A DNA stretch of 64,000 nucleotides from Tubiluchus corallicola (GCA_030141605.1 JAQGDQ010000874.1:21868-85867); one strand, 5' to 3'; positions 9,943 through 51,222 are shown, counted from the stretch's first letter. Numbers and translations: made by a program. Notes: a model not told the origin generated them from the sequence alone.

Positions 9943-11063
9943 TCACTTTGGGAGGTTCCTTTCACTGTTATGCCAGAAAGTCATCCTTTGCTAAATAGAT
10001 AAACGCTTTTAAAACTTCTGTATTGCTTTCGTCTATAATCTGATTCATATCTAATGTTGGTAAATTATCTATTAAATCATTTCTGTTGATCGTATTGACT
10101 AGATGGTATTCAAACAATAAACAATGTGAAGCTTGTCTACCATTCATACATTTACATACATCAGTATTAGCATAAATCACATTGTTATGTAGCCTTCACT
10201 ATTTCATTCATGTTCCAAAGTCGTTTATTCTAAAGAGAATAATAAAGAGAACATTAACAAGTAAGAAAAATAAATAGAATGATAAACAGAAGATTAATAA
10301 TTAAGAAGAAGTCAACTTATTGGTAAAAGTACTTTCTCAAATTTCAGAGATCGAATTCATAAACTTAATTAAATTATTTAAATTCATGTAACTTACATCG
10401 TTGGCTCTGCGTCAAGATTTAACATTTCTCAAGGTACAAAGTTGGTCATAACTAAACGCTGTTATTAACTATAACACAATAACGATAAAAAACATTGCTG
10501 TAAATAAAAACACGACCATCATTGTTCTCCTCATGTTCTTGCCTCTCCGCACTGCTCTTAGAGGGCAGCACCTTCCCATTAATAAGTGTCGTTATGCATA
10601 TTCCAGTTACACACATATAAATGTTTAAACAAGTAAGATGGTTATTCTCCTACAAGTAAAGTCTGTGCTCATACAGTCATAGGTCATAGGTCTTATATAA
10701 GACGTATTTTAGTTTAGTTTATTTTTATTTCTAAAATGCCAATAAGTACAACATTGTTATAGTTTTATATAGAAACTGTTACTACAGCAAATAAATTAAA
10801 TTTAAATTCACCATAAATTGATATAACGACTCAGACCAAGAAGATAGACTTGTACTGAGCTGAGCAGAAACCAAAACGGAAAGAGAAAGATCAGAAGTAA
10901 AAGGTGCAGGATGAAGAAGCAAAAAATGAAATACAAGGGGGTAAGAAGGATAAGGATATGACAATGCAGGGCGAATGGGATGGTGATGAAAATGAAGATT
11001 AGACTCAGCCGAGTCACTGCAAACATCAGTACGAATCAAGGCAGGGACAAATAACCTCAGTAG

Positions 11064-11440
11064 CAGGGGCGAGCATCGAACGTTCGAACTCGATTCGAAT
11101 CCAAAACTATAGATTCGAATAATTCAGCACTTCAATCATATATGTTCTTTATCACTAAAACGATTGAAACAACATGCAACTAACATAATTTAGCTGTGAT
11201 TTCTGCGCACAATTTTAAAGCAATTACTAGTCGTTTTATTGTAGAACAAAATCTAGTGATATGCATGATCTTTGTAAGACAAATTTTTACTGGTGGTGCG
11301 AAAACTTGTTCGAAAATCTTTCAATCTCAATTCGAATTCGGTTCGAATTCGAAACACTGAAGTTCCGTTCGATTCGAATTCGAAAGTCACAAATTCGGTT
11401 CGATTCGAATTCGCTTTCTGGTAGAAAATGATCACCCCTA
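11064..11440 (+). mobile_element. hAT-type MITE with 8-bp TSD
   Basis: Ends CAGGGGCGAGCAT and ATGATCACCCCTA, with TSD ctcagtag at 11056-63 and 11441-48. Homologous to 38834-39240 and about 61828-62224. Confidence 0.8.
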
Positions 11441-11551
11441 CTCAGTAGTTCTTCTATGCTTCTTGGTGCGGTCCTGAAAGAGCTATACTTCTTGGTGCGG
11501 TCCTGAAAGAGTTAATATCCAATAAAGCCTGGTGAAAGTGCCAGTGCTGTC

Positions 11552-12556
11552 CTAATTCAATGTAGGCCTACTGACTTCGGAATTAATCACAACTACATTT
11601 CTTTTACAAACGACCTTCAAGAAGATCAAGCGAAGATTTTTCACTTTCCAAAAATATAATATTGCATTCATGAGTCCGTCCATGTTCAACATGATGAGAC
11701 CAAAACGCTTCAGTGATTCGTTTGCTATGCCACAAGCGTGGTAAAGAGTTAAATGCAAAAAGATTGGTGTGAGACATATTATCGAACTACAGGCAATCAG
11801 AAAAACCGAAGTGGCAGTTTTGAATTGTTCTTTTAGTCTCGGATACCATCTATCACCATTTGCAACCACAGGTAATATCATCGGCACGAGTCTGGACTTG
11901 TGCTGCAACACAATTTTGAATATGTTAACATAAACAAATGTTATTGCAGTAAAAATTGCCAAAAACTGGGCAGTAAAATAATGAGCGACACCAGGCAGAA
12001 CTAAACGATCAATGAGACAAGCTCTGGCATCCTTCGTTTCTGAAAATGACTCCAGTATGAATTTAGCTGATCCTGCGATTCCAACGAGAACTGAATAAAT
12101 CCAGGATGAAACGATCATAACGGCTGCCACTCGTTTAGAGAATATCGTGGAATAATGCATGGGGTATATGATGGCTACATATCGGTCAAAGGTCAAGAGT
12201 AGTTGAGTGACCAAGCTCTGAGTGACCAATGTAAAGACAGCAGAGACGTTCAAGGAGCAGTAAACTTTATTAAAACCGACTATTACCTGCCTCGTTGCGA
12301 ACAGCTGTAAACCATAGATACCAAGAATACCATCATTAAGTGCCAGATTTGCCAAAAGTAAGTTAGCTGCTGTTCTCAACGAGTCGACAGAAACCAGAAG
12401 GACGACGACACAGGCATCTAGTCCAATAAGAACCATCATTAACGTCATGAATACGACTAAGAAGATCACCATGACAACCACATTATTTGCAGCATCTTCA
12501 TCAGTATCAATGACAGATTCCACTGTGCTATTCCACGGTGACAGTGAAACATTCAT
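11552..12556 (-). CDS. Intronless rhodopsin-like (class A) GPCR, orphan
   Basis: 334-aa ORF with 7 hydrophobic segments and N-terminal N-glycosylation sequons (NVS, NST). Motifs: TM2 NLALND, TM3 Cys and FDRYVAI, TM4 W, TM6 CLTP, TM7 MNAILY, helix 8. Confidence 0.9.
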   Translation of the reverse strand: MNVSLSPWNSTVESVIDTDEDAANNVVVMVIFLVVFMTLMMVLIGLDACVVVLLVSVDSLRTAANLLLANLALNDGILGIYGLQLFATRQVIVGFNKVYCSLNVSAVFTLVTQSLVTQLLLTFDRYVAIIYPMHYSTIFSKRVAAVMIVSSWIYSVLVGIAGSAKFILESFSETKDARACLIDRLVLPGVAHYFTAQFLAIFTAITFVYVNIFKIVLQHKSRLVPMILPVVANGDRWYPRLKEQFKTATSVFLIACSSIICLTPIFLHLTLYHACGIANESLKRFGLIMLNMDGLMNAILYFWKVKNLRLIFLKVVCKRNVVVINSEVSRPTLN

Positions 12557-13868
12557 TCTTCTGCTTTTTTATTGTTACTGGAACTTGGAAAAATGTCTAG
12601 TAGGCTGAAGGTTCTGCTTGACTATCTTGCTATGTTACAGCCTTGACACCATTTAACATAATCTAAACTTCTATTCAAATCTTAGCTCTGATAACATAAT
12701 TTTGCACGCGCATGCGCAGGATTACAAAACGTTTAATGCAAATCTTAGCTCTGATAACTAAACATTGCACGCGCATGCGCAGGATAACAGAACGTTTAAT
12801 TTAATTATGTAAGACTAAGGTTAGGTTTTCTGTCCTTTAACAATAACAATGTCATGCAGTCACTTATCCAACTGAACAATTAGGTTTAAATTCAGCGATT
12901 TAAATACAAATGACTGCACAGCGCGATAAATAAGCTTCAAACAAATCGAAAATCAACTCAGCACCGTATTGCATGTCAAAGTAATTATGTGAAGCCAGAC
13001 AATTATGTGAAGCCACAATAATAGCATTAAAATGTAACTTCAAAGCGCCTACGCAGAGGAAATGTCGTGCACTGCACAAAAAAGGCAAAATCATGATCAT
13101 TATTTTATTGATGTTTTAATTCAACTGACAATAAACGCCACGCTGCCGTCAACACAAATATTGAAAAAAGCACAAAGAAACTATTGCAGGAGGCGTTGGC
13201 ACTGCTTTTAACTCCTTCGGGAGTGTGCGCCATTCAAAATAGGACTGACAACACCTATGGTTTTTCTGCTACTATACGAGCACAGACACAGGACCGCACC
13301 ATGAAGGACAGGTCTTATAAGATTTGTGACTTTCTGCTACTGTACGAGCACAGACATAACTAAATGATTACAAATTAGGTACTGTTCTATTCGGGAGAAT
13401 CTCGGCTATCCAATCGTGCTATTTGTTTAAACATTTATAAGTGATTTAATTGGATAAGATTAAAAAAAGCCCACCCTTTTCAGGCACTCAAACTTAGCCT
13501 ATTGAGTAGCATAGTCTGGTGTACAGTTGCATGATCGTACACACTATTTTATTGGTCGCCTGTTTGTTGAGCCCAAGAGAACTGTCTGCTGTACAGATTT
13601 CCAGGAAAAACCAACCGATCAATCAAGGATAAATTAAGGTCGTCTCAAATTCCAACAGGAATTTCTGCTTAAAAATAGAATATACTTGAGGCCAAAGTAT
13701 ATCAGAGTGTTATGCCTGGACAGTTGAAATTTTCTGCAAAAGCCGATTTCATACAAGTGATACTGTACACTGAGTTCCCAAATACAAATATTTGCTTGGA
13801 ATTCATGTAATACTTATTAAAACATTGAATTTCTGATGACTAGATTTGACCAAATGACTAATGCATTT

Positions 13869-16142
13869 CTAATATGCACTTTGCTGTTTCTTATCACTTT
13901 CTTCTATCCAATCCCAAACGTTTCTTAAATACAAATCAGTTTCTCCAATTTGCGCCTTGTTCAATATTCCTTCCCCCTGTTTTACTGCATGTGTTTTTAG
14001 TATAGCATGGTACTTTTCAAAATCTGGTTCCATTACACCTTTTTTTGATGGTATGGCATCAATATCAAATTTGTTGGCTATAGCATGTGCTGCGTTTTCT
14101 GCCAATGTTAACAATGGAATGCCACTCATTTCTTTATGTTTTAGATCTTCTAAGATATTGACATCATTTAGCAGTGGGTGAAACATTGCGCCTTCTCGGC
14201 AACAGTCCCCAATGTACTGGAATATAGAGACAGCATGAGCTTTCAAGTTTTCTGTGCTCCAGTCATCTTTAGTGGTCACCACTTCATGCAAGAAGGCAAC
14301 TTTTAACATGTAAGAGTCAATGACCTTATCTGGTTGATACTTTATTGCTCTGTATAATTCTGGCAAGTTGACATCTAAACTGACCAAAATGGGGTGGAAT
14401 GCTGAAGCATCAGGATTGGGATATAAATGTATTTCTTTGTTGCAAGAATACAGGACAGGCTTTACTAGCACCTTTATGAGGATCAACACCATCTTACGGC
14501 TGTTGTCTAAGTTCTTTATAAATTCACATTCAGCAACAGCAAATGTGGGTTCAACTTTTGTTTTTGATTCGTCTGGTTTGACCACGTAGTGATAACTCTT
14601 GACAAACTTTGGCCATTTATCATTGGCATTCTTTGGTACTCCCACTTTTTCAAAACATGGTGTCACATCTACAGAGACTTGTACTATTTTTTTGTTTGGC
14701 AACAGAACACATAATTTCAAACATGTACAGACTTTATTCCATTCCACTACACGTGGAAAGCTGTTTGGCACAATTATTTCTTTAAATTTCTCTTCTTGCA
14801 AAGCTGTTGCCACGGCTCTGCACAGGGATTGGGAAAACATCTCCTTTAATTTTCGTAAATCTGCTGTGAAATCTCCGTGCAGCTTTTCATATTGTACCAC
14901 AACAAAAAAATCAAACTCATCTGGCTGGCCAATCTTTACTCCACAAGCTGAACTGCCAACCAGTATGGGCACAAATCTTATACGATGATTTTCGTAAAGA
15001 ATTCTGCTAACGGCATCTAACAATTCCTTTATATTGGTTCTAATATCGTCAAATTCTTCCACATTTGAAATTGTTCCTAATCCAGGCTCGGAAACCAAGC
15101 CCTTTAGAGGCAATCCACAAATATTTTTTGACACTGTTTCATCATCCCCTGTGACAGAAAGCTCTGAAGACACTTCTTGCCACATTTGAAAGTACCGATA
15201 AGAAAGAAAAAGTCCTGCAATTTGTTTGAAATTTTGGTTCAATGCCTTTTCGTAAGCTCGTTGGATGCACATATCATAAGCCGTTTCATGAAAGTCATTT
15301 AACATTTCGGTCTGAACTCCTACATCAATGAGGTATTTAACAACGTCTACACTTTGAGCTGATGAGTGAGCATTATAACAAGCCAGATGAATTAGACTTC
15401 CTCCATTGTAAAGTTTATTTACTATCTGCCTTACTACTTCGCCTGAATACGTATCTTGCACATTTTCATATATTAATTTAAGAACATCCAGTCTACCTTT
15501 CATACATGCTAGGGTGAGTGGGGTCCAACCCTGATTATTTTCTGCCAGAATGTCAGAGCCCGCAAAAATCAGAACTGCTGCACAATGAACATGTCCTTGC
15601 ATTGCTGCCGTATGCAGAGCGGTATCACCTTTTGTGTCTAGGTAGCAGACATTTGCACCTTTGAGAAGCAGCAAAACAAGGGTTCCAAAGTGCCCTTGAT
15701 TTGCTGCAGCACGGAGGGGAGGACCACCAACTGAAATGTAAGGATGTTCATCAATTTTGGCGCCATATTTAATTAACAGCTTCACTATTTCAGTGTGGCC
15801 TTCCGATGATGCATGCTGTATAGGTCGTAGTTTAAACTTTTCTGAGAAGCAATCAACTTCTGCTCCATGAACCAACAGCATTTCACAAATTTCTGTATGT
15901 CCCGCTAAAGCTGCTAATATTAAAGGCGACCATGCTTTGCTTCTAGAAAGACAGTTTATTTCAGCACCCCGTTCAATGAGTTGCTGTACAAGAGAAGTGT
16001 GTCCCAAATAACATGCAATTCCAAGGGGGGTTCTTAAACTCTCATTAAATCTGAAGCCTGGATCATCTAGTTTTCTAGTGATTCGTGATTCACTTTCCAT
16101 TTCTGCTCCTCTGTTGAGAAGTTCATCAACAAGCTCAGGCAT
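13869..16142 (-). CDS. Ankyrin-repeat + Mab-21/cGAS-like nucleotidyltransferase (cGLR candidate), intronless
   Basis: 757-aa ORF with about 8 ankyrin repeats (TPLGIAC..GH, SPLILAA..GH, TALHTAA..GH etc.). These are followed by the NTase motifs LVGSSACGVKIGQPDEFDF, VSVDVTP and LILIKVL, then the Mab-21 C-lobe motifs DSYMLKVAFLH and FHPLLNDVNIL. Confidence 0.88.
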   Translation of the reverse strand: MPELVDELLNRGAEMESESRITRKLDDPGFRFNESLRTPLGIACYLGHTSLVQQLIERGAEINCLSRSKAWSPLILAALAGHTEICEMLLVHGAEVDCFSEKFKLRPIQHASSEGHTEIVKLLIKYGAKIDEHPYISVGGPPLRAAANQGHFGTLVLLLLKGANVCYLDTKGDTALHTAAMQGHVHCAAVLIFAGSDILAENNQGWTPLTLACMKGRLDVLKLIYENVQDTYSGEVVRQIVNKLYNGGSLIHLACYNAHSSAQSVDVVKYLIDVGVQTEMLNDFHETAYDMCIQRAYEKALNQNFKQIAGLFLSYRYFQMWQEVSSELSVTGDDETVSKNICGLPLKGLVSEPGLGTISNVEEFDDIRTNIKELLDAVSRILYENHRIRFVPILVGSSACGVKIGQPDEFDFFVVVQYEKLHGDFTADLRKLKEMFSQSLCRAVATALQEEKFKEIIVPNSFPRVVEWNKVCTCLKLCVLLPNKKIVQVSVDVTPCFEKVGVPKNANDKWPKFVKSYHYVVKPDESKTKVEPTFAVAECEFIKNLDNSRKMVLILIKVLVKPVLYSCNKEIHLYPNPDASAFHPILVSLDVNLPELYRAIKYQPDKVIDSYMLKVAFLHEVVTTKDDWSTENLKAHAVSIFQYIGDCCREGAMFHPLLNDVNILEDLKHKEMSGIPLLTLAENAAHAIANKFDIDAIPSKKGVMEPDFEKYHAILKTHAVKQGEGILNKAQIGETDLYLRNVWDWIEESDKKQQSAY

Positions 16143-17709
16143 GTTAAAGTGCGTAGCAGAATGTAGCAGCTTGTTGAGCCCTCGTGTTCTGTCTTCACCA
16201 ACTGAAGGAGCTAATTGAGTTGTAACGTCACGAGTGCCGATTTTTGTTCAGCGTCTGACACACTGTCAATAAGTACCTCGATTCTTTCCATATCAACAAT
16301 CAAAAACACTTCTCACTGTAATCTTTTAGTCAGGTAGCAAAAAACCGAAGTGGCTAATTTATATTGTGTATCAAAACTATCACACAAACAGCATACAAAA
16401 TGGTCTTATGTTTTATTTTATTTTCAAGCACGTAAACTTGTACCAGATAGTAGAACGTTCTAGCGAATAATAATTCCACAAGGTGTAATAGTAAAATTTG
16501 TGCATATTGTGCATCGTGATATTAAGACTGACCTTTGCACCTTAATCACAGCAAACTGATGACAAACAAACAAACAACTTTTCTTGGCAAATAAGACGCA
16601 GTTTGTCTAAGCACTGTTATCAGATGTAAATAAGGAAGCATGGCGTCTTGGAGAAATTGTTGCTGTATATTTAATTCTAAACATGGACTCTTGATACAGT
16701 CTTTTAGGTTCATTTTGTTTATTTATTGGTGGCCATTACATATTTTCAAGGCTTGATAATGTAGTTGTACTCAAAATGAAAATATAATTACTATAGAGCT
16801 AGCAATAATTATATATGTACAAGAAAAATATACCCAGTCTAAAGGTTGCTGTGACGTCAGCCTGGAATATAAGAACTACCGAGCAGCATTGCAACCCATT
16901 TTAATATAGTTGACTTTGTATTCTAGTATGATTTTGTGTATATCCTATACTTAGGTTGCTCTTAATTTAGTTAATTACTTATGTTAATTGAATGAGTCAT
17001 TAGTTAATTACTCATTAAGCGAATTTATCTACTACAATAAAGCAAGTAGTGACTGTAGGTATATGAGCATGCACCTAGTTCGCTCTGGGAAGGGTCCCAC
17101 CTCATACCTGTCCTAGATCTCCTTTACAAGAAAGTAAGTGATTGGTCATACGCTCAACTGAACAGGCTATCTAGCCAATAAATTGTCGTGTTAAAGGACA
17201 AGGTCATCCAGTTTTACCTGTTCTAGAAATTGAAACCCGGTTCAACACAGTGTGGCTTCCGATGAACATTTATTAATAATCGAAGTCAAGACTTAATTAC
17301 TGTGGCGTCAGAAAGTGATTAAAGGGCACTGACACACCAAAGGGTTTGGTGTTCGAGCCGTGAGGCGAAAACACCAATAAACTGGCTATTATTCGTTATT
17401 TTATGTTCTGCTGTAAACGGAAATTCAGGAGATCTGATGCAGAAACAACCAAGCGATGACCAGACGTTGTATCAGTGGTTCCACGAGCTCCACGGGCCAG
17501 GACTCCACTGCACTCCACTAGGATTGGAGTACTTTACCACTTATGACTCCGGTACACCTGACACGCATTGTAGAAGTGGTCACATTCCGCCCTGCTCGAG
17601 CTTTGGACGAGTAACTGCTCAAGATTCCACGAAGTTCGCATAGTCACGTTATTCCAGCTTCCAGAGTGATGGAGAACGTCAAATGTTGGAATCCAACAGT
17701 GTCCGACTT

Positions 17710-18244
17710 TTCAGGCACTCCAACGTAGCCTATTGAGTAGCTTAGCCTGGTGTACACTTGCGTGATCGTACACATTATTTTATTCATTGCCTGCTTGCTA
17801 CAGCCTAAGCTGTTTCACTGTTCTACTGCTATTCCAGGAAAAAACAACTCGTCTGCCAAGAAGAAATTAAGGTCGTTTCATCTTTTAATGAGAATTTCGC
17901 CTTAAAACTAGAGTAGAGTTGAGACCAAAGTTTATCAGAGTGTTGTGTCTGGACAGTTGAAATTTTCAACATTAGCTGATTTCACACAAGTGACACTGTA
18001 CATTGTTACAGTGCAAACACTGCAGTTGCTGCAAGCTCTTTGCAATTTATTCGTCAAAAATCGATTTTTAAGTTGTCTAAGGTAAGCAAATGCATTTCAT
18101 TTATAATTTTGCATGAAAATCCATTGTGTGAGGAGTAGAAACCTACAAAAATTGTCAAATATAATGTAATTGTTGGATAGTAAGAGCAATGTCTCATGAA
18201 CCCGTGCAAAATGCAGCGAGCCCTTGTGGTCATGAAGAAGTTAA
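17710..18244 (+). mobile_element. piggyBac-like non-autonomous element, right arm; family copies at about 13208-13772, 39455-39963, 41880-42275, 59028-59430(-)
   Basis: Homologous ~500-bp body ending in gaag(a/g)agTTAA. Confidence 0.6.
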
Positions 18245-18489
18245 TAGAGTTAAAGGAAGACAAAATGATTTTTCATATACTACCCCATTTTCAAGTACGG
18301 TAAAAATACACATTTTAACACATATAATAATGCCAAACCGTTTCTGGTAATTAATACGTTAAAAACTTAATTAACGACGGGCGAGCCCAGCTAGTGATGA
18401 CTAGTGATACTACGTCATTAGAGATAGTATGTTTTAAATTTATGCTTTATAGGCAGTACTTTGCAAATTTCTTTGTCATATTTTTCTAA

Positions 18490-18848
18490 GTTTAAGTGAT
18501 GCTAGTGATAAATAAATCCAACACACTGAATGACTTGTTCTTTCCTTTAGCACACCACAAACAGTTTAAGTGATGGGAGTGATAAATAAATCCAACACAC
18601 TGAGAGTCTTGTTCTTTCCTTTAGCACACCACAAACAGTTTAAGTGATGATAGTAGCGATAAATAAATCCAACACACTGAGTGACTTGTTCTTTCCTTTA
18701 GCACACCACAAACAGTTTAAGTGATGATAGTGATAAATAAATCCAACACACTGAGGGACTTCTTCTTTCCTTCAGCACACCACAAACAGTTTAAGTGATG
18801 ACAGTGATAAATAAATCCAACACACTGAGTGACTTGTTTTTTCCTTTA
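18490..18848. repeat. ~74-bp minisatellite (about 5 copies)
   Basis: Unit gtttaagtgatgatagtgataaataaatccaacacactgagtgacttgttctttcctttagcacaccacaaaca. Confidence 0.9.
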
Positions 18849-19085
18849 AACAAACTTAAGAACAAAACAATTACAGATCAACTTAGGACAATTAAAAATG
18901 CCAACAAAACACCAAAAATTATAAAAAACAGTTGTATCTATTAACATATAAAAACAGTAGCCATACTATATAGCCTTGTAGCTACACTGGATTTTATATA
19001 ATGTCTAAAAACAAAAGTAAAAATGTAACAACAAAAATTAGTTTTTCATGATATGTGATAACAATATAAACAATAGATTTTATCA

Positions 19086-19561
19086 TGAAGCCACCTACAG
19101 ATCCAATGAAGCCATTACGGATCCACTGAAGCCACCTACAGATCCAATGAAGCCATTACGGATCCACTGAAGCCATTACGGATCCACTGAAGCTACCTAC
19201 AGATCCAGTGAAGCCACCTACAGATCCACTGAAGCCACCTACAGATCCAGTGAAGCCACCTACAGATCCAGTGGAGCCACCTACAGATCCAATGAAGCCA
19301 CTTATAGATCCAATGAAGCCACCTACAGATCCAGTGGAGCCACCTACAGATCCAATGAAGCCACTATGGATCCAATGAAGCCACTGACATATCCAGTGGA
19401 GCTACCTACAGATCCGTTGAAGCTACATACAGATCCAGCGAACCCACTTACAGATCCGTTGAAGCTACATACAGATTCGTGAAGCCGCCTGCAGATCCAG
19501 TGACTCCACTAGCATATTCCGTGAAGCCAACTACAGATCCGATGAAGCCACCTACAGATCC
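19086..19561. repeat. ~21-bp tandem repeat (about 22 copies) overlapping the MASTL stop codon and 3'UTR
   Basis: Unit gaagccacctacagatcca(a/g/c)t. Its reverse complement contains GAT CTG TAG, the last codons of MASTL. Confidence 0.9.
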
Positions 19562-22500
19562 ACATCTGACACCGAAAGCTGCTGAAGATTATTTCTTGCT
19601 GTGAAGAGAAACATAAAAACAAGAACTAATAAGTGCCGACTACAAGTAATCACCATAGATCCTAGAAGAACTAGAACCTTTACTCTTCACTTGCTGCATT
19701 CACCAAATAAAAAGTCCAATCTTTAATGAGTAGCACACCACAAACAGTTATTCCAAATTACGAAAAAAGGCAAAGCAACAACAACTTCAGGCATAGTAAT
19801 AAGCCTTTTCACAGTTTTCTTGCGCACATGCACACCTGCTGCAGGCCAAAGGTCACCTGTACCGCAGCAATGAGTCTTAAATACAACCGTCATATGACAC
19901 CAAAGCCGTCAGCCGCATCAGTTCAATAACGTCAGTTGTTTTACATGGACTTTACTTAATTATGCATTAGTCTGTGCGTAGAATAATTTACTAGCAGGAC
20001 CTTACTAGAAAACAAAGGAAACAAAGAACTAGGTAAGGGTCTAGCTAGCAGTTAAAACTGTTACTATTACAATAGCAGGGGCTGCGAGGCGTTGTCAAGT
20101 GTACACAAATGCGTTGTCTGGCACGCTTAACCTTTGACCTTTTCACGATCATCATCAATTGCTGGAACTGCGAAAAGGCTTATTCTGCCATCAACAATGG
20201 TCATTAAAAATACAATAATATAGTAAGTATTTCACTATTATACATACAATCACTTCACAAGGCAAACGTTCCATAAACGTATTGTAATAAAAAAATCAAA
20301 CATGTCTGGCGAAATGGGTGTTTTGTTTTAATTTCTTTGCTCTCTAGCAAAGCCCAGAACTCAGAAAACGAGAGACCTGCAAAATCACTGCGATTGGTAC
20401 AACGTATTTCAAGCAGTCTTAGACAAAAGTGACAACAGTTGTTAAACTCACCATCAAAGTAGCCAGTATCAAACTGATCGTTCGGCTGTGGAACAAACAG
20501 CGGCGTTGTCATTAACAGGTTCTCCCAGTCAACATTGGAAAACATTTCCAAAGTCTTCACACCTGCGTTAAAAATCGGTTTTAACCCTTTCTGTCCCAAA
20601 TTATTTTTCTAACAAGAAAAATTTTTTTAGCTTGGCACTTTTGTTCAGTATGTCCATCTTGTTTACACATAATAATTATTTTTTCTACCTGTGCCCGCAC
20701 GCTAAATATAGGATGTATCCCACGGGATACATTAGAATTCAATGGAAGCATAAAATGTGCTTCATTTTGCAACTGCTGATAATTTTTTAAAGTATTTAAG
20801 ACATTTAGCATGCATGCTACACTGTTCTGTACAAAGTCGTCTCTAAAGTACTGTACCTTGCACAGTTTTTTATGCAATGTAGATTTTTTAATTTGCCATT
20901 TTATCACCATTTTTAGTCTATTGTTATTGGCTTAAATCAAAATAACTATTAACAGAGCGAATAACTGTCAGTTTTAAAATTTTATTAATTTTAAAGGTAG
21001 AGAATATTCTCGTATCCCACGGGATACAACGGGTATGAAAGGGTTAAGCGATTAGACAAGAGTTAACCATTTAAGCATTAAAAATTACGTTAATTTTATA
21101 CGAAAACCGGTGAAACCAGCCACTAAACAACTAACTAATAACAAAAGCTACGTTTTCCGACCACTAGGTGGCTCTTGCGGTGGCTGAGAACCCTGCCAAA
21201 ATGTTGCATTACGTACCAGGGGTAGAGTCAGGTGCACAGTAGCAATAACGCAGAATATTTTCACGTTACTAACTAAGTTTTTTAACTAACTTTAATTATA
21301 TTATCCACCATCTATGTCACATGGGGAACAGTCATCATTTATTAATCCCAGCATGAATAGCACAATTTATAAGGTCATAACAAAACCACATTAGTGATTA
21401 AACATAAAAAATGTAGAATGTAAAAATAGAATGTAATTAAAAGCGGCGATTCTTAGTTAAAATCACTTTAAAATAGAATAAAATTTAAAGCTACTATAAT
21501 CAAAATCACACAGAAGTAGAAATAAAACAGTATTAAATTGAATTAAAGTAAAATCACACTGGCGCAAAAACTATTAGCGTCGAACTGCCCTAATGAATGT
21601 CGGTTAGCTAACGCAGCGTGAAGCTAGCCTGTTTAACACCTGGGTGAATAGAACAAGCCTGTTCTGAAGTTGCTTTGCAATGTTACGTATTTGCTTTGAT
21701 AGCTGTTTAATTAGGCGTTACGTATTCTTACACAAGAGGAGCAAGAAAGCTTAGATGCGGATTTACGTAAAACGGTTTTCAGCCAAGATGTCAAAAAATG
21801 CAAACTGAATGCAAGAACACTTCAAACCAAACAAATTTGTTTTCTAAGTTTAAGTGATGATAGTAATAAATAAATCCAACACACTGAGCCACTTGTTTTT
21901 TCCTTTAGCACACCACAAACAGTTTAAGTGATAACAGTAAAATGAACCCAACATACTGAGTGACTTGTTCTTTCCTTTAGCACACCACAAACAGTTTAAG
22001 TGATAACAGTAAAATAAACCCAACATACTGAGTGAATTGTTCTTTCCTTTAGCACACCACAAACACTTTACTGATGATAACAGTAAAATAAACCCAACAT
22101 ACTGAGTGAATTGTTCTTTCCTTTAGCACACCACAAACAATTTACAGATGATAACAGTAAAATAAACCCAACATACTGAGTGACTTGTTCTTTCCTTTAG
22201 CACACCACAAACAGTTTAAGTGATAACAGTAAAATAAACCCAACATACTGAGTGAATTGTTCTTTCCTTTAGCACACCACAAACAATTTACTGATGATAA
22301 CAGTAAAATAAACCCAACATACTGAGTGAATTGTTCTTTCCTTTAGCACACCACAAACAGTTTAAGTGATGATAGTGATAAATACATCCAACACCTTAGT
22401 TAAAACGCGTTGAAAATTTTCTTCTGTAGCTGACTTTGAAACTCGAAGCTGGTTCGAAACTCAAGGCCGGCAAACATTTTTTACATTTGATTTCAGAGCT

Positions 22501-25500
22501 AAGTTCCAAAACACTAGCAAGGAAAACTAGCAAGTTCAAATAGGGTTCCCACAGAATTTTCAAATAATTTTCCTGGATTTTGAGTATGGACATTCATACA
22601 TAATGCGTCGGCAGTTGCAGTAGTGCTAATGAAATTACACTAATCACATTAAACCTTCTTAATCTAAATCATTATTTTTGGAACAGAAATTGAAACAGGG
22701 AACCTGCCGTAGCAAAATTTTATTTGAACACGAATCACTGAGAAATATGTTTGGAAAAATATCGGTTCATGGCGATTATTTTTGCAACCCTTTCCAATTT
22801 CCCTGACTTTTCGCATGATTTTCGTCATTTCCATGATAGCTCGTATTTTCAAGGATCTTCCAGGATTTTCCGTGACCCTGGGAATCGTGTCAGAAGCATC
22901 AGTAGAGTTGGGGTCACCCGGAGCGGCCCGCAACCCCCCCCCCCGTCTAGCGATGCCACTGCACAAGACCCAAGTGTAAAATCTACTGCAACTTACTGTA
23001 CCTTTTAGCCGAGGTCTACTGGAAGGATTCATCGTAAGAAGCGTTTCAACGGCCGTGACGGCACGTCCGGAGAGGGCTTCATCCCCATCAGGCCATTCCA
23101 CTTCTACAAAAAGTCATTATTTGTACTGCTGCTTCACAAAAGTTTTTTGTTAACAAATATAACAACAATACAGGTGGTCAGTACATCAGAATTTTGCCAT
23201 AAATAAGTCTTTTCACGGTTTCGTTGTGCGCATGCACAGTTGCTGCAGGTGAGAGGTAAAGTGTGTGGGTAAAGCAAAGCCGTCTGCCACATCAGTTCAG
23301 TAACTTCAGTCGTTTTACGCAGCATTTACTTACATCATACAACACAACACAACACAACATAATATAACATTACATAACATAATATAACAATGCCGTTAAC
23401 TACAACCGTTACGTGACGTGTGTGTAAAACAAAGCCGTCTGTCGCGTCAGTTCAGTAACTTCAGTCGTTTTACATGACATTTACTTAATCGTGCAATAGT
23501 CTGTACGTAGAGTGATTTACTAACAAGATTTTGCTTGGGAACAAAAAAATGAACTAGGTAAGGTTCTAGCTAGCTGTTAAAACTGTTACTGTTATAACAG
23601 CATGGGCTGCGAGGCGTTGTCAAGTGCGCACAAATGCGTTGTCTGGTACTCTTAACCTCTGACCTTTTCACGATCATCATCGATCGTTGGAACTGTGAAA
23701 AGACTTATTAAATAACTCCATATAAGACCTGATAACCTTCAAATTTGAGTGTTGATACTTAGTTAAAGTGAAGAAAACGACTTACCTCTGCTGAGAATGT
23801 GTTGAAATACTAAATCTGGTGTTTGATCGTTAAAGGGTGGAACACCTGTCAAGAACTCATACAGGCAGACACCAAGTGCCCACCAGTCAACTTCCACACC
23901 TGTAATTAAAGGAAAACACACCTGTAATCAACGGAAGACACACCTGTAATTAAAGGAAGACACACCTGTAACTAAAGGATGACACACCTGTAATTAAAGT
24001 AAGACACACCTGTAATTAAAGGAAGACACAGCTGTAATTAAAGGAAGACACAGCTGTAATTAAAGGAAGACACACCTGTGATTAAAGTAAGACACACCTG
24101 TAATTAAAGGAAGACACACCTGTAATTAAAGGAAGACACACCTGTAATTAAAGGAAGACACAGCTGTAATTAAAGGAAGACACAGCTGTAATTAAAGGAA
24201 GACACACATGTGATTAAAGTAAGACACACCTGTAATTAAAGGAAGACACAGCTGTAATTAAAGGAAGACACACCTGTAATTAAAGGAAGACACACCTGTA
24301 ATTAAAGGAAGACACACCTGTGATTAAAGGAAGACACACCTGTAATTAAAGGAAGACACGCCTGTAACTAAAGGATGACACACCTGTAATTAAAGTAAGA
24401 CACACCTGTAATTAAAGGAAGACACACCTGTAATTAAAGGAAGACACACCTGTAATTAAAGGAAGACACACCTGTGATTAAAGGAAGACACACCTGTAAT
24501 TAAAGGAAGACACGCCTGTAACTAAAGGATGACACACCTGTAATTAAAGTAAGACACACCTGTAATTAAAGGAAGACACAGCTGTAATTAAAGGAAGACA
24601 CACCTGTAATTAAAGGAAGACACGCCTGTAACTAAAGGAAGACACAGCTGTAATTAAAGGAAGACACACCTGTAATTAAAGTAAGACACACCTGTAATTA
24701 AAGGAAGACACAGCTGTAATTAAAGGAAGACACACCTGTAATTAAAGGAAGACACACCTGTAATTAAGGAAGACACACCTGTAATTAACGGAATACACAC
24801 CTGTAATTAAAGGAAGACACACCTGTAATTAAAGGAAGACACGCCTGTAACTAAAGGATGACACACCTGTGATTAAAGTAAGACACACCTGTGATTAAAG
24901 GAAGACACACCTGTAATTAAGGAAGACACACCTGTAATTAAAGGAAGACACACCTGTAATTAAAGGAAGGCACAGCGTGATTTTTCATATCCATTTTCAA
25001 GTTAGATAAAAAGTATACATTTTAACACAATTAATACTGCAAAAGCGTTTCTGATAATTAAATAATAGATTAAAAGCTTAATTAATGGCAGCCGATCCCA
25101 GCTATTGATGACATCACAAACTAACGCAATTTTCAACAGCAAAAATATTCCACGAGCATGTTGGCACGTGTATGTGAAAGAGAAATACAGTGCTGCTGTA
25201 AGATATTCAGCGTGCTGTTCTAAAACTTGGCAAGTTTTAAGATAAAAATTCAAACTTCAAATTTACTGCTGTACTCACGCATGAGCTGTCGAACGTGTGC
25301 AGATCGTCACAAACTAATACATCTGAACTGAGAAATACAGCACTTGTTGTTTGTGCAAAACATTTCTGAAATGCAGGCGCAGGTGGCCATCTAACTAGCA
25401 AAGTGCATGTAACAGCGAAGAATTAGTGGCGCGAACTCAAAATTGTGTTTACGCGTTAATAATTCTTTCATGCAAGTCATTTTTGAAAAAACAGTGCAGT

Positions 25501-28500
25501 TTACAAGGCTGTTTTTCTTTGAGGATTTAGATTTTGGGACGGCACGATGTCAGGGCTGGATGATGACCTTCTGGGGCCCCTGGGCTAATTAAATTATGGG
25601 GGCTTCTCAGACAGAGATGCCCACTAACTCGCCCAAACTCATCTGGAATATTTTTTACTCGTGATATGTTCACGATTTTACATAAATTTGAAGTAAACTT
25701 ATTGGCAAATTCCTTAAATAACCTAGAATAGCTATCATTTCATTTGTTTGTCAATAAAAATATTGTTTAAGAAATGCTACTATTTTATGAACTATGAACT
25801 ATGAATTTTATTTCACACATCAAAATACAATATTATACACATAAATAAACAATAAATAAAATGATTGGAGTAGTGTGAGGTGAGTGTACGACCATACAGT
25901 CATTAACACACTCACCTTACTTAAATGAAAAAGTTATGCATGCTTTTTTAGATGACTCAATTCAATGAAATTGATGTAATAAAGTAAATGATGTAATAAT
26001 AGTAAGGAAACATAAGGACAACATAATAGGGAATTACGATTTTGATATGAATATTGAAATAATTTTGAAATAAAGTAAATGCTGTAATAATAGCAAGGAA
26101 ACATTAGAAAAACATAATATGGAATTACGATTTTGATATGAATATTGAAATAATTATGAAATAAAGTAAATGATGTAATAATAGCAAGTATTTTACTATC
26201 CTAACTTTGTATTTGTTCAAGTAAACAATGTACCATGTTCGTTGCCCAGTAACAATTCTGGTGCTAGGTAATCTGGCGTGCCCAGGACGCGAGTGCACCG
26301 ATCGCGAGGTTCGGGACCTCGACGGACGCTCTTCGGGGTCCGGAATGGACTCTTGTGCTTGTACACGCATCCGGGGGTCCGGAATGGACTCTTGTGCTTG
26401 TACACGCATCCGGGGGTTTGCTGCAAGACCTACAACAACGAACAAATTATCGTTACGATAACTTATCAAAATGCAAACTGTAGGGAATTTCGCTAAGTAT
26501 CTCGCTGGTCACGTGACCACGGGCACTCACCTGTGCAGATCTGTTTCTACCTGGGCAAGTGAGTTAGTTGGCAGACGTTAACAGGCTTCTTTAAAAGTAG
26601 TTTTTCACAGTATGATAGTGATAATTTGTCAGATATATTGGTAAATACTAGATTTGCTGTATGGAGACATTCGATGTAAGCAAATACGTCACTTTGCATT
26701 TTTTTGAATGAACCGATCACTTTGAGCATTTTAGTTTATTGAATGACAATCTTATAAATTCGATAGAACGTGGTATAAATTAGTAAAATTACCAAATTAG
26801 GTTTACTTAATGTTTGTGTTTAGTAAAGTCTAGAACTACAGAATTTAATGCAGATTTGTAAAATAGCTTTTTTTTATTTTCTTTTTTCAATAGAAATGAA
26901 GTATAAAACTCTACAATATGGCGGACATTGAATGTAGTACATATACACTCGGGAATTTACTGACATATATATATATATAATGAGATTGAGTCCAAACAAT
27001 CGTCCGGTCTTCATTTAACATAAATCGTTTTGGCAGAAACCGAAAAATCTAGTTCGTTGATAAAGATGATCTTCTAAGATGAGGTACTGAGTTGCAGTAA
27101 TGTCCTAGCCTTATAAGTTTTGGAGGCCATATAAAACGGACTTTCAGACCAGAAGCAGCATGTATGTTTTAGTTGAAACAGCAAACACTTTCATGACAAT
27201 CACCCATCTAATTACTAATTAGGCATAGGTGTTTTCCCGACAGCTTAATTAGAATTGTGGGTATGTTTTGCATACACATATATTAAATAAATCTATATGT
27301 ATAACGTGTGCTTGCATAGCAAAATCGTCCGGAATTCGGCATTGAGTTTCACAGGTTATTCACACGTCATTGATCTCAATTTCATGAGGATCATTTTGAC
27401 GCATCTGCACAACAGCCGTCCATTATGGAAGTCACCGGACAAGCAGTTGTACTTGAGTCTCTATCTAGATAGTTTGTAAGATCATACGTTATTTCTAAGC
27501 TGAGATAATCCACGTTGAAGTTGAGGTGTTGAGTTGGGTTGAATCTTGAAAAACTCACTGTTAAAGTCAGCCATTGCTTCTACAAAACACTTAGCAATCA
27601 CGCAAATGTTGGTTGCTACGGACTTTGCAACAACACATTGAAGTTATGTTTAAATCCAGTAGATGATTCTTCCTGATGAAGATCTGGGCTTGGCAACAGA
27701 AAAAGCTGCACATCTGCACAAGAGCTGTCCATAATGGAAGTCACCGGCCAAGCAGTTGTACTTGAGGAACCACTTTAAAATAGGATCTTCAGACTTCCTG
27801 GCCTAATCTTTCAAAGTCAGCTATGCAAAGTATGGGCCCTTCAAGCCTGAGAGGTCCTAGACTACAACCTAAACTGGCCCATAGAGTAATCCAGTCTTCT
27901 GCATATGTAGTCGAGTAAAGGAAGTGTTTATTGAGAGGTCCTAGACTACAGCCTAAACTGGCCCATAGAGTAACCCAGTCTTCTACATATGTAGTCGAGT
28001 AAAGGAAGTGTTTATTGAGAGGTCCTAGACTACAGCCTACACTGGCCCATAGAGTAATCCAGTCTTCTGCATATGTAGTCGAGTAAAGGAAGTGTTTATT
28101 GAGGGGTCCTAGACTACAGCCTAAACTGGCCCATAGAGTAATCCAGTCTTCTACACATGTAGTCGAGTAAAGGAAGTGTTTATTGAGGGGTCCTAGCTAC
28201 AGCCTAAACTGGGCCATAGAGTAACCCAGTCTTCTGCATATGTAGTCGAGTAAAGGAAGTGTTTATTGAGGGGTTCTAGACTACAGCCTAAACTGGCCCA
28301 TAGAGTAACCCAGTCTTCTGCATATGTAGTCGAGTAAAGGAAGTGTTTATTGAGGGGTCCTAGACTACAGCCTAAACTGGCCCATAGAGTAATCCAGTCT
28401 TCTGCATATGTAGTCGAGTAAAGGAAGTGTTTATTGAGGGGTCCTAGCTACAGCCTAAACTGGCCCATAGAGTAACCCAGTCTTCTGCATATGTAGTCGA

Positions 28501-31500
28501 GTAAAGGAAGTGTTTATTGAGGGGTCCTAGACTACAGCCTAAACTGGCCCATAGAGTAACCCAGTCTTCTACATATGTAGTCGAGTAAAGGAAGTGTTTA
28601 TTGAAGGCTCCTAGACTACAACCTAAACTGGCCCATAGAGTAACCCAGTCTTCTGCATATGTAGTCGAGTAAAGGAAGTGTTTATTGAGAGGTCCTAGAC
28701 TACAGTCTAAACTGGCCCATAGAGTAACCCAGTCTTCTGCATATGTAGTCGAGTAAAGGAAGTGTTTATTGAGGGGTCCTAGACTACAACCTAAACTGGC
28801 CCATAGAGTAACCCAGTCTTCTGCATATGTAGTCGAGTAAAGGAAGTGTTTATTGAGAGGTCCTAGACTACAGCCTAAACTGGCACATAGAGTAATCCAG
28901 TCTTCTACATATGTAGTCGAGTAAAGGAAGTGTTTATTGAGGGGTCCTAGACTACAGCCTAAACTGGCCCATAGAGTAATCCAGTCTTCTTCATATGTAG
29001 TCGAGTAAAGGAAGTGTTTATTGAGGGGTCCTAGACTACAGCCTAAACTGGCCCATAGAGTAATCCAGTCTTCTGCATATGTAGTCGAGTAAAGGAAGTG
29101 TTTATTGAGGGGTCCTAGACTACAGCCTAAACTGGCCCATAGAGTAATCCAGTCTTCTGCATATGTAGTCGAGTAAAGGAAGTGTTTATTGAGGGGTCCT
29201 AGACTACAGCCTAAACTGGCCCATAGAGTAATCCAGTCTTCTACATATGTAGTCGAGTAAAGGAAGTGTTTATTGAGGGGTCCTAGACTACAGCCTAAAC
29301 TGGCCCATAGAGTAATCCAGTCTTCTACATATGTAGTCGAGTAAAGGAAGTGTTTATTGAGGGGTCCTAGACTACAGCCTAAACTGGCCCATAGAGTAAT
29401 CCAGTCTTCTGCATATGTAGTCGAGTAAAGGAAGTGTTTATTGAGGGGTCCTAGACTACAGCCTAAACTGGCCCATAGAGTAATCCAGTCTTCTACATAT
29501 GTAGTCGAGTAAAGGAAGTGTTTATTGAGGGGTCCTAGACTACAGCCTAAACTGGCCCATAGAGTAATCCAGTCTTCTGCATATGTAGTCGAGTAAAGGA
29601 AGTGTTTATTGAGGGGTCCTAGACTACAGCCTAAACTGGCCCATAGAGTAACCCAGTCTTCTGCATATGTAGTCGAGTAAAGGAAGTGTTTATTGAGAGG
29701 TCCTAGACTACAGCCTAAACTGGCACATAGAGTAATCCAGTCTTCTACATATGTAGTCGAGTAAAGGAAGTGTTTATTGAGGGGTCCTAGACTACAGCCT
29801 AAACTGGCCCATAGAGTAATCCAGTCTTCTACATATGTAGTCGAGTAAAGGAAGTGTTTATTGAGGGGTCCTAGACTACAGCCTAAACTGGCCCATAGAG
29901 TAATCCAGTCTTCTGCATATGTAGTCGAGTAAAGGAAGTGTTTATTGAGGGGTCCTAGACTACAGCCTAAACTGGCCCATAGAGTAATCCAGTCTTCTTC
30001 ATATGTAGTCGAGTAAAGGAAGTGTTTATTGAGGGGTCCTAGACTACAGCCTAAACTGGCCCATAGAGTAATCCAGTCTTCTACATATGTAGTCGAGTAA
30101 AGGAAGTGTTTATTGAGAGGTCCTAGACTACAGCCTAAACTGGCCCATAGAGTAATCCAGTCTTCTGCATATGTAGTCGAGTAAAGGAAGTGTTTATTGA
30201 GGGGTCCTAGACTACAGCCTAAACTGGCCCATAGAGTAATCCAGTCTTCTGCATATGTAGTCGAGTAAAGGAAGTGTTTATTGAGGGGTCCTAGACTACA
30301 GCCTAAACTGGCACATAGAGTAATCCAGTCTTCTGCATATGTAGTCGAGTAAAGGAAGTGTTTATTGAGGGGTCCTAGACTACAGCCTAAACTGGCCCAT
30401 AGAGTAATCCAGTCTTCTACATATGTAGTCGAGTAAAGGAAGTGTTTATTGAGGGGTCCTAGACTACAGCCTAAACTGGCCCATAGAGTAACCCAGTCTT
30501 CTGCATATGTAGTCGAGTAAAGGAAGTGTTTATTGAGGGGTCCTAGACTACAACCTAAACTGGCCCATAGAGTAATCCAGTCTTCTGCATATGTAGTCGA
30601 GTAAAGGAAGCGTTTATTGAGAGGTCCTAGACTACAGCCTAAACTGGCCCATAGAGTAACCCAGTCTTCTGCATATGTAGTCGAGTAAAGGAAGTGTTTA
30701 TTGAGGGGTCCTAGACTACAGCCTAAACTGGCCCATAGAGTAATCCAGTCTTCTGCATATGTAGTCGAGTAAAGGAAGTGTTTATTGAGGGGTCCTAGAC
30801 TACAGCCTAAACTGGCCCATAGAGTAACCCAGTCTTCTGCATATGTAGTCGAGTAAAGGAAGTGTTTATTATGTAAACAAAAAGTTATTTAAAAATAATA
30901 ATAATAAGATGGCTGATCTTGAACGAGTCATTAATTAACAAATGATTAATTTAACAATTTTCTCTTTTAATTCATTAACCTTCATAGAGTGAAAATTGAA
31001 GACTAATCTGCATCTGACTGTTTTGTGATTTGTCTATGGCAAAACTTAACACGCCTCGTTATAATGTCAACTTTCTTCCAGTCCGAAGGAGGGTGGCATA
31101 AAGTGCTTCAACTACAGTCGACCCTCGTTAAACCGGACCCCGTTAGCCCGGATATCGGATAAGACGGACGTCATCCGTGGTAAAGGAAACTGACTGATTT
31201 CCGTCCGAGCCGGAGCGCTAAACACAACACGGCCTAACAACTGTACAATAATTTCTTTATCCTCACAGGTTAACTATTTTAAAGTAATATACAGTATAGC
31301 ATATAGTGCAATGTATATAGGCTTTATTAAGGTGATTATTCCTGTATAATATTGACCATATATAGGCATATCGGATAAATCGGACAATCGGCTAAACCGG
31401 ACCACACCCCCAATTATTCCTGTTTAACGAGGGTTGACTGTATATGGTATATTTCCTAACCTTAGACAATGTATGTCTACAGCTCAGAGCTGGGCTGTTT

Positions 31501-50433: not shown

Positions 50434-51222
50434 ATGGCAGCACGGACTTATCGCAAAATGGCACATGTAAATTGTGGTGGATTTGGTTGTATTATTGCAA
50501 GAAGTGCTAAGAAGTTGAGTTCTTCTCTGTCGTTTTCTCCATTGAAGTCAGAAGTGTTCAGTCAGTCTTCTTATTGTGTCGCTCGAGCTTTTGCCTTTAA
50601 ACTGCAGTCGAAGGGATTCCACACATCGTCAGCATGTCGAAAGGAAGGGTTGCCGGAGGGACCCCAAAGGTGGCGTAAATATAACGAGGTCGTATGGAGT
50701 CCTCAGAAAGAAGGAGAACCTCGCAGAAATGCTGAAGTATTTCACTTTCGAGAGAATATTAAATATAGTCCGAAAAAAATGTGGTACCTTGCTTGCTGGA
50801 TTCGAGGAATGTCTGTTGATGAAGCCGTTAAACAACTTTCTTTTCATCCAAAGAAAGGTGCTCACATAATTAAAGATATTTTACTTGAAGCACAAGAACT
50901 AGCAGTTAGAGATCACAATGTGGAATATAAATCGAACTTGTGGATAGCTGAATCGTTTGTAGGAAAAGGAATTGTTGTGAAAGGTCTTCGACGCCATGCT
51001 AGAGCCCGTTATGGTACTGTACACTATCGTTATTGTCATTATTTTGTTAAATTAGCCGAAGGTTCACCACCTGCATACTATTACAAGCCAGAACTCACGG
51101 GATGGGACTACATGGAAGATTACTTAAATGACTGGAGGAGTCGAACAATACATTTCGGCCAGCAAGCTGTACCGGGCATAGCTAAGCATCCAAGAATGAG
51201 ACCACGAGAAGAAGAGTATTAA
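50434..51222 (+). CDS. MRPL22: Mitochondrial large ribosomal subunit protein uL22m, intronless CDS
   Basis: ORF with IKYSPKKMWYLACWIRGMSVDEAVKQL, HNVEYKSNLWIAESFVGKG and RRHARARYG..YCHYFVKL. The N-terminal mitochondrial presequence ends near FHTSSAC. The start ATG is uncertain (50377, 50434 or 50458). Confidence 0.93.
   Translation: MAARTYRKMAHVNCGGFGCIIARSAKKLSSSLSFSPLKSEVFSQSSYCVARAFAFKLQSKGFHTSSACRKEGLPEGPQRWRKYNEVVWSPQKEGEPRRNAEVFHFRENIKYSPKKMWYLACWIRGMSVDEAVKQLSFHPKKGAHIIKDILLEAQELAVRDHNVEYKSNLWIAESFVGKGIVVKGLRRHARARYGTVHYRYCHYFVKLAEGSPPAYYYKPELTGWDYMEDYLNDWRSRTIHFGQQAVPGIAKHPRMRPREEEY

What the first reader, a model, noticed from the sequence alone, without database searches (positions are those of the whole stretch)
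13869..16142. Ankyrin-repeat / cGAS-like nucleotidyltransferase fusion: candidate protein-sensing cyclic-nucleotide immune receptor
Seen: about 8 ankyrin repeats fused to a Mab-21-fold domain that keeps the activation-loop GS, the acidic pair (PDEFDF), the third Asp (VSVDVTP) and the C-lobe SY-x-LK motif. No cGAS zinc-ribbon (H-x5-CC) is visible. Established: these motifs define cGAS/OAS/CD-NTase-type enzymes, and animal cGLRs make cyclic dinucleotides for STING. Ankyrin-containing cGLR architectures have been noted in invertebrates, but to my knowledge their ligands and products are largely uncharacterised. Inference: an active enzyme that is triggered or auto-inhibited through the ankyrin array, possibly by a protein ligand rather than nucleic acid. 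That would be a non-canonical innate signalling module.
Basis: partly seen in the sequence, partly recalled or inferred. Interest (0 to 1): 0.78.

Follow-up and report, generated by a model that had tools for sequence, protein, structure and literature searches.

The report
Ankyrin-fused cGAS-like sensor, frameshifted copy
This invertebrate gene joins ankyrin repeats to a cGAS-like enzyme domain that keeps its catalytic residues, and relatives are already catalogued; it likely works as an immune sensor that would be switched by a protein rather than by DNA or RNA, but this copy, one of likely seven or more, has a reading-frame break near its start.

Summary
The fusion is real: six canonical and two degenerate ankyrin repeats precede a domain predicted to fold like cGLRs (Z 22.6 to oyster Cv-cGLR1), with GS, E-x-D and the third Asp kept. 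The kind is known. Li et al. 2023 list ankyrin-cGLRs, including two Priapulus proteins of this same small 'WNKVC' clade; I found neither among the proteins they screened.

The start is likely ATG 16291, and this copy has a one-base frameshift near 16221 that sister copies lack. Contig depths suggest about seven or more near-identical copies, and the listed variants show no excess of silent changes.

A non-nucleic-acid trigger has modest support: domain pI 6.6 (nucleic-acid sensors exceed 8.5), an acidic spine helix and a shortened post-EFD subdomain. Acceptor-side residues differ from cGAS, so the product is likely not 2'3'-cGAMP. Ligand, product, activity and expression are untested.

The scan noted an ankyrin-cGLR array earlier in a flatworm. 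Unchecked notes report caspase- and HEPN-twin-STING fusions in this genome; these are candidate receptors.

The parts
16222..16291 (-). Likely true start and first ~23 codons, in a frame upstream of the break; this frame stops at 16213-16211 in the window's copy
   Evidence: Matches the N-terminus of P0002, score 41, 0 of 5000 shuffles
16221..16222 (-). One-base frameshift relative to sister copies
   Evidence: Extra base in contigs of X1, X2, X3, X4. Exact 78-nt contigs 16192-16269 without it in X1 (depth 5.8) and X2 (127.5); these have only 30 letters on one side, one short of the tool's bridging rule
13869..16220 (-).
15303..16175 (-). Ankyrin array: 6 canonical repeats (16034-15477) plus 2 degenerate repeats
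15195..15293 (-). Conserved capping/linker helices (res. 319-351) between array and enzyme; 61% identical to P0002 against 25% for the following spacer
14025..15128 (-). cGLR-type NTase core (res. ~374-741)
   Evidence: Model range matched; profile hits to cGAS and cGLR at E 1e-16 to 1e-7
14907..14963 (-). Activation loop LVGSS and acidic pair in PDEFDF (E444, D446)
14727..14741 (-). Clade signature WNKVC, placed by eye where cGAS has GSPAVT
   Evidence: Present in 13 of 13 full-length proteins; 2 rows in Li Table S1, both Priapulus
14658..14678 (-). Third acidic residue D527 (VSVDVTP)
14301..14321 (-). C-lobe DSYMLK motif
13869..14024 (-). C-terminal helical extension beyond the cGLR core, and stop codon
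   Evidence: Helices in the model; outside the range matched by most rows
16292..16839 (-). Upstream non-coding DNA that appears to be duplicated with the gene
   Evidence: Raised depth continues here; single contig 16384-16480 at depth 67.3 in X1 and 1163 in X2
13476..13772 (.). Copy of a common interspersed repeat downstream of the gene
   Evidence: 79% identical to 17707-18005; also near 39475, 41876 and 59249
17707..18005 (.). Second copy of the same repeat upstream of the gene, same orientation

Best explanation
The locus is one copy, with a reading-frame break near its start, of a likely recently multiplied gene family that fuses ankyrin repeats to a cGAS-like receptor (cGLR) enzyme domain; intact copies likely act as innate immune sensors whose ankyrin array would bind a non-nucleic-acid ligand, likely a protein, and whose enzyme would then make a cyclic dinucleotide other than 2'3'-cGAMP for STING-type receptors.

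Shown: the architecture, the catalytic signature, membership of a clade with catalogued Priapulus cGLRs, and the two frames.

Predicted: the cGLR fold.

Inferred:
(1) The copy number.
(2) Gating through the conserved capping helix that joins arrays of about 2-16 repeats to one enzyme type.
(3) The ligand class.
(4) The product.
(5) The STING output.
(6) This copy is null, or makes at most an N-terminally shortened protein from ATG 16142.
For: Enzyme:
- Fold top hits are cGLRs and cGAS.
- The family profile hits cGAS and Sp-cGLR1 at E ~1e-14 or better.
- Metal and phosphate residues are conserved: GS, E444 and D527 in 11 of 11, D446 in 11 of 11, K592 and SY..K invariant.

Obligate fusion: 10 of 10 full-length hits among 13 carry ankyrin repeats; the other 3 are C-terminal fragments. 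Repeat number varies from about 2 to 16 while the linker helix is conserved.

Non-nucleic-acid trigger:
- pI is 6.6, the spine helix has 7 acidic against 3 basic residues, and 2 of 13 clade members reach 8.5, against the criterion in Li et al..
- The segment from D446 to F471 is 25 residues, against 32 in P0002 and 40-57 in the other 9. In cGAS this segment carries part of a DNA/nucleosome-binding surface (recalled).

Altered acceptor side: Val at the [QT] position, WNKVC in place of GSPAVT (by eye, against the cGAS sequences shown), and no Arg at the WRLSFS position.

Expansion: single contigs over the gene have about 7-10 times the depth of single contigs on the flanks (X1 64.6 vs 7.5-8.7; X2 1163 vs 166-179; X4 76.1 vs 7.2-8.2). 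At least six Priapulus paralogs exist.
Against: - No activity, ligand or product was tested. Many cGLRs with intact motifs were inactive in Li et al.'s screen.
- The same fold is held by MiD49 (Z 19.5) and MAB21L1 (Z 17.8), tied or close to the cGLR hits; these are non-immune or non-catalytic (Li et al. for Mab21L; MiD49 recalled).
- pI is a crude proxy; no surface map could be made. The Priapulus member P0006 has pI 8.73.
- Variants among copies show no excess of silent changes: 7 of 38 in the N-terminal 200 bases against 0.23 expected at random, and 5 of 19 elsewhere. These are only the best-supported rows that the tool listed (24 and 389 rows not shown), read one site at a time.
- Other copies also show frame-breaking indels (15936, 14682) and a 190-base skip.
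- STING in this genome rests only on unchecked notes.
Confidence: 0.5

Rival explanations
1. An ordinary nucleic-acid-sensing cGLR (most likely dsRNA) in which the ankyrin array only recruits partners or sets location.
For: 9 of the 15 active cGLRs in Li et al. respond to dsDNA or dsRNA. The best fold matches, Cv-cGLR1 and Sp-cGLR1, are nucleic-acid sensors. Two of 13 clade members have pI of 8.5 or more.
Against: This protein's domain pI is 6.6 with an acidic spine helix. It has no zinc ribbon, and its post-EFD subdomain is shortened.
Confidence: 0.2
2. An NTase that does not make a cyclic dinucleotide: the ankyrin array picks a protein substrate for AMP/UMP transfer, or the domain only binds nucleotide as a scaffold, as MiD49 does (recalled).
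For: Donor/metal residues are kept while acceptor-side residues are replaced clade-wide (VGS, WNKVC, no WR arginine). Ankyrin arrays bind proteins (established). MiD49 scores Z 19.5.
Against: The caged two-lobe cGLR architecture is complete (model range 60-414 aligned to Cv-cGLR1). Invariance of all three acidic residues argues against a dead scaffold. VGS is common among listed cGLRs.
Confidence: 0.15
3. The copies in this genome are a neutral by-product: a gene segment spread by neighbouring repeats and now decaying, with at most one or two working copies and no role for this locus.
For: Frameshift in this copy and indels in others. Near-neutral silent fraction among listed variants. The copy sits alone between a Greatwall kinase gene and a GPCR gene, flanked by high-copy repeats.
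Against: In X4 all depth at 16221 has the open form. The only listed variants at invariant residues, H654 and K468, are silent. No transposase-like ORF or long terminal inverted repeat was seen. Paralog expansion also occurs in Priapulus, which fits birth-and-death evolution of an immune family.
Confidence: 0.15

Closest known systems
Priapulus caudatus ANK-cGLRs XP_014668761.1 (P0006) and XP_014666123.1 (P0016) in Li et al. 2023, Tables S1/S2 (PMC9980059)
   Same: N-terminal ankyrin array, conserved linker helix, LVGS...K.G.PDE[FY]DF, WNKVC, D[VI]TP, SY.LK; E 8.7e-29 for P0006; listed as cGLRs
   Different: 29% identity in the enzyme domain. The window protein's post-EFD subdomain is about 20 residues shorter, its pI is lower (6.6 vs 8.7 and 8.1), and this copy is frameshifted. 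Neither Priapulus protein appears in the screen table.
Oyster Cv-cGLR1 (8gjw) and coral Sp-cGLR1 (8gjy)
   Same: Fold (Z 22.6, rmsd 3.0, 295 aligned; Z 19.7, rmsd 3.9, 289 aligned) and catalytic signature
   Different: These sense dsDNA and dsRNA and make 2'3'-cUA and 3'3'-cUA. Identity is 15-18%; neither has WNKVC by the Table S1 search.
Vertebrate cGAS
   Same: GS, K, E-F-D, VPK and SY..K motifs align; fold Z 18.7
   Different: No zinc ribbon; V for T before GS; no WRLSFS arginine; acidic spine; ankyrin array in place of the basic N-terminus (recalled)
Other ankyrin-cGLR fusions in Li et al. (cnidarian, decapod, bivalve and other rows)
   Same: Domain order ANK then cGLR
   Different: They lack WNKVC and were not returned by the exhaustive search with this enzyme domain, so they are likely separate lineages; this was not tested with a joint tree.

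Membership tests
cGLR (Li et al. 2023) | G[S/G] activation loop and [E/D]h[E/D] X50-90 [E/D] triad | tested here: met
   G431-S432, E444-F-D446, 80 residues, D527; GS to E spacing 11
cGLR (Li et al. 2023) | Strict motif h[QT]GS | tested here: not met
   LVGS: Val at the [QT] position. Li's own list includes LVGS proteins, among them two of this clade, and the methods also give the looser G[S/G] rule, so this does not exclude it.
cGLR (Li et al. 2023) | Homology over both the NTase core and the C-terminal helix bundle | tested here: met
   8 of 8 aligned members hit both Mab-21 and Mab-21_C at E up to 1 (best 1.6e-6 and 2.4e-11); the window protein's Mab-21 hit is below the curated cutoff. The profile matches cGAS over positions 33-341.
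cGLR (Li et al. 2023) | Predicted structural homology to cGLR/CD-NTase | tested here: met
   pLDDT 83.6; Foldseek and VIA-align top hit 8gjw
cGLR (functional) | Ligand-triggered synthesis of a cyclic dinucleotide | not testable with these tools
   Needs an in vitro assay
cGLR (functional) | STING receptor in the same genome | not testable with these tools
   No genome is held; only unchecked notes report STING fusions
Nucleic-acid-sensing cGLRs | pI above 8.5 with a basic ligand surface | tested here: not met
   pI 6.6, acidic spine helix; criterion. The surface itself was not mapped.
Vertebrate-type cGAS | Zinc ribbon H-x5-CC | tested here: not met
   Absent from the sequence
Ankyrin-WNKVC cGLR clade (Priapulus XP_014668761.1 group) | ANK array, linker helix and WNKVC on a Mab-21 NTase | tested here: met
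   13 of 13 full-length proteins; name and definition are mine
Intact protein-coding locus | One open frame from the homologous start codon | tested here: not met
   ATG 16291 and the main frame differ by a one-base shift
Virus- or prokaryote-borne gene | Relatives on viral or prokaryote contigs | tested here: inconclusive
   None confirmed; these scans use short patterns and can miss distant relatives

The most novel reading that the evidence does not exclude
The ankyrin-WNKVC cGLRs are the sensor-synthase half of a CBASS-like circuit in animals. A variable ankyrin array detects a pathogen protein and releases an enzyme core that needs no nucleic acid; its LVGS loop matches that of a designed DNA-independent cGAS (7lz3). 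The core makes a private nucleotide signal, read by single-chain twin-STING receptors fused directly to a caspase or HEPN RNase. Unchecked notes report both fusions in this genome and the caspase form in Priapulus, the only named animal in this cGLR clade.
Probability: 0.15. Interest if true: 0.82.

Novelty: new member of a known kind. Interest (0 to 1): 0.4.

Why it matters
Li et al. name unknown ligands of cGLRs as the main open question, and my searches found no ankyrin-cGLR with a characterised ligand or product. This clade is a compact test case: obligate ankyrin fusion, variable repeat number, a non-basic enzyme surface and a distinctive acceptor-side motif. If a protein trigger were shown, it would extend the animal cGLR family from nucleic-acid sensing to protein sensing. 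This particular copy is a poor reagent because it is frameshifted; an intact sister copy or P0002 is the better choice.

Tried and rejected
- Whole genome: none is held, so paralogs and STING could not be counted.
- Expression: no RNA holder was listed. X6 (RNA is a guess) had no contig on the gene. This is no evidence either way.
- The single-sequence fold of the whole protein failed (pLDDT 37).
- Ankyrin array against enzyme domain as a complex: no answer, score 0.00; the alignment was not used.
- PDB search with alignment A2 was swamped by ankyrins; repeated with an enzyme-only alignment.
- The flanking direct repeats were considered as LTRs and rejected: they belong to a common interspersed repeat found at three more places in the window.
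- Nesting inside the Greatwall gene was rejected: its likely last exon is near 19598-19550.
- An intron as the explanation of the two frames was considered less likely. The spacing to P0002 is near-colinear, and sister copies have the extra base.
- No viral, prokaryote or metagenome relatives were found. Rfam found nothing at 10000-22000.
- An NF-kB-like site at 17088-17098 is not above chance (12 of 100 shuffles give 5 or more matches).
- The LVGS match to designed constitutively active cGAS is kept only as a lead. LVGS[STAV] occurs 57 times in Li Table S1, about two per row, and the design paper was not available.
- Host placement from MRPL22: best named hits are spiders at 64-66%, but the tree of 29 of 67 available proteins does not group it with spiders, insects or inside the mollusc/annelid set; left as an unidentified invertebrate.
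- Priapulus STING sequences were not found in Li's file 4. The STING + caspase + Priapulus search gave one unrelated listing.

Full report
1. Observation. The minus strand holds one open frame from 16247 to 13869 (792 residues stop to stop; residue numbers refer to it). Pfam finds ankyrin repeats (Ank_2 E 1.3e-49) and Mab-21_C (E 4.3e-7). A repeat profile built from 39 repeats of homologs finds six canonical repeats at 72-257 and two degenerate ones. No H-x5-CC zinc ribbon is seen.

2. The gene model needs correcting. The closest homolog, P0002 (800 aa, 51% identical, unnamed source), begins about 50 residues earlier. Its N-terminus matches a peptide from ATG 16291 in another frame (score 41; 0 of 5000 shuffles). 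Contigs from all four runs laid show one more base at 16221. Exact 78-nt contigs without that base exist in X1 (depth 5.8) and X2 (127.5), about two thirds of flanking single-contig depth. They have 30 letters on one side, one short of the tool's bridging rule, and X1-X3 are one sample that may be the window's source. The break is therefore likely real rather than an assembly slip, either as an allele or as a fixed broken copy. The upstream frame stops after 26 codons, so this copy is likely null or at best shortened.

3. Copy number and setting. Summed depth is not a copy number, so I used single contigs. In X1 a 422-nt contig on the enzyme domain has depth 64.6 against 8.7 and 7.5 on the flanks. 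In X4 a 232-nt contig has 76.1 against 7.2-8.2. In X2 the contig at 16384-16480 has 1163 against 166-179. This suggests about seven or more near-identical copies plus more diverged ones. Only one copy lies in the window, between an intronless GPCR gene and the likely last exon of a Greatwall-type kinase gene (name recalled). Some sister contigs carry other frame-breaking indels. Among the variants that the tool listed, 7 of 38 in the N-terminal coding part and 5 of 19 elsewhere are silent, against 0.23 expected at random for the N-terminal part. These are selected rows (24 and 389 not shown) read one site at a time. They show no purifying selection among recent copies and cannot separate decay from diversification.

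4. Family. An exhaustive search with the enzyme domain returned 13 proteins. Ten are full length and all ten carry ankyrin repeats; three are C-terminal fragments. Four are named, all Priapulus caudatus, and a second search raised the Priapulus paralogs to six. In 11 aligned proteins G431, S432, K438, E444, D446, W503-C507, D527, K557, K592, S645, Y646 and K649 are invariant. WNKVC holds in 13 of 13, while the two added paralogs vary at some other sites. Repeat number runs from about 2 to 16, but a helix between array and enzyme is conserved. The model of residues 318-792 has pLDDT 83.6. Its best matches are Cv-cGLR1 (Z 22.6, rmsd 3.0, 295 aligned), Sp-cGLR1 (19.7), MiD49 (19.5) and mouse cGAS (18.7); Foldseek agrees. 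An enzyme-only profile of 8 of the 13 proteins hits cGAS and cGLRs at E 6e-16 to 3e-7.

5. What is known. Li et al. 2023 (PMC9980059; I read passages, sections 6, 7 and 10, and searched supplements 1-6) state that some cGLRs carry ankyrin modules. Their Table S1 holds two WNKVC proteins, both Priapulus ankyrin fusions and both among my hits. They are the only two cGLRs counted for that species, beside five STING genes. The screen table has no Priapulus, WNKVC or 'ankyrin' entry. Cells over 400 characters are cut and most descriptions are uninformative, so another ankyrin-cGLR may have been screened; the supplementary figure file could not be read. Searches for ankyrin with cGLR, cGAS-like receptor or Mab-21, for non-nucleic-acid ligands and for STING fusions listed no paper that characterises an ankyrin-cGLR; I saw only listings for most of these, and subscription journals are mostly missing. 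The choanoflagellate preprint (10.1101/2025.09.04.674280; passages) does not mention ankyrin.

6. Mechanism. The donor and metal site is complete, so intact copies are likely active (inferred). Three points argue against a nucleic-acid trigger. The domain pI is 6.6, and 11 of 13 members are under the 8.5 that Li et al. give for dsDNA/dsRNA sensors. The spine helix is acidic. The subdomain after EFD is 25 residues against 32 in P0002 and 40-57 in the rest; in cGAS it bears part of a DNA and nucleosome surface (recalled). The acceptor side differs from cGAS: Val for Thr before GS, no arginine at WRLSFS, and WNKVC where cGAS has GSPAVT (by eye from sequences shown). The product is thus likely not 2'3'-cGAMP (inferred). 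I favour ligand binding at the ankyrin array, passed on through the conserved linker helix, with output to STING-type receptors (0.5). The top profile hits were designed DNA-independent cGAS variants with LVGS or FVGS loops (design summarised in PMC12934549, passages). LVGS is not rare among cGLRs, so this is only a lead. Rivals: a dsRNA sensor with a scaffold array (0.2), a protein-modifying or non-cyclising NTase (0.15), neutral decaying duplicates (0.15).

7. Earlier notes. The scan recorded an ankyrin-cGLR array in a flatworm. It also recorded caspase-twin-STING and HEPN-twin-STING fusions in this genome, the caspase form also reported for Priapulus. I could not verify these. They supply the boldest reading: a protein-triggered synthase paired with STING-effector fusions, like bacterial CBASS (0.15).

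8. Verdict. A real ankyrin-cGLR fusion and a new member of a catalogued but apparently uncharacterised clade. This copy is frameshifted within a likely recent expansion. Interest 0.4.

Noticed in passing
window 45931-19550 (-): Multi-exon Greatwall/MASTL-type kinase gene (name recalled from motifs): exons near 45931, 41345, 37980, 26282, 23888, 22700-22750 region of the ORF 22664-23113, 20600, and a likely last exon at 19598.
   Followed up: partly
window 11552-12568 (-): Intronless rhodopsin-family GPCR, 338-aa frame (7tm_1 E 3.3e-24), at single-copy depth.
   Followed up: no
window 50377-51222 (+): Mitochondrial ribosomal protein L22 in one uninterrupted frame; used for host placement without a clear result.
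   Followed up: partly
window 20581-21047 and 42272-42739: 469-bp duplicated segment, 94% identical, both copies inside the kinase gene span.
   Followed up: no
window 27789-30888; 23895-24976; 18423-18872 and 21781-22394; 19086-19601; 1471-2228: Tandem repeat arrays (units of about 84, 66 or a divisor, 74, 21 and 83 bases); the 84-bp array gives an 814-aa open frame that is likely not a gene.
   Followed up: no
window 34638-36314 (-): 558-aa open frame with no Pfam hit; not examined further.
   Followed up: no
proteins P0016 and P0017 (Priapulus): Short branches separate these two paralogs and P0008 in the enzyme-domain tree; P0017 has changes in the acidic motif region, and P0009 has N for the D before E-F-D.
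   Followed up: no
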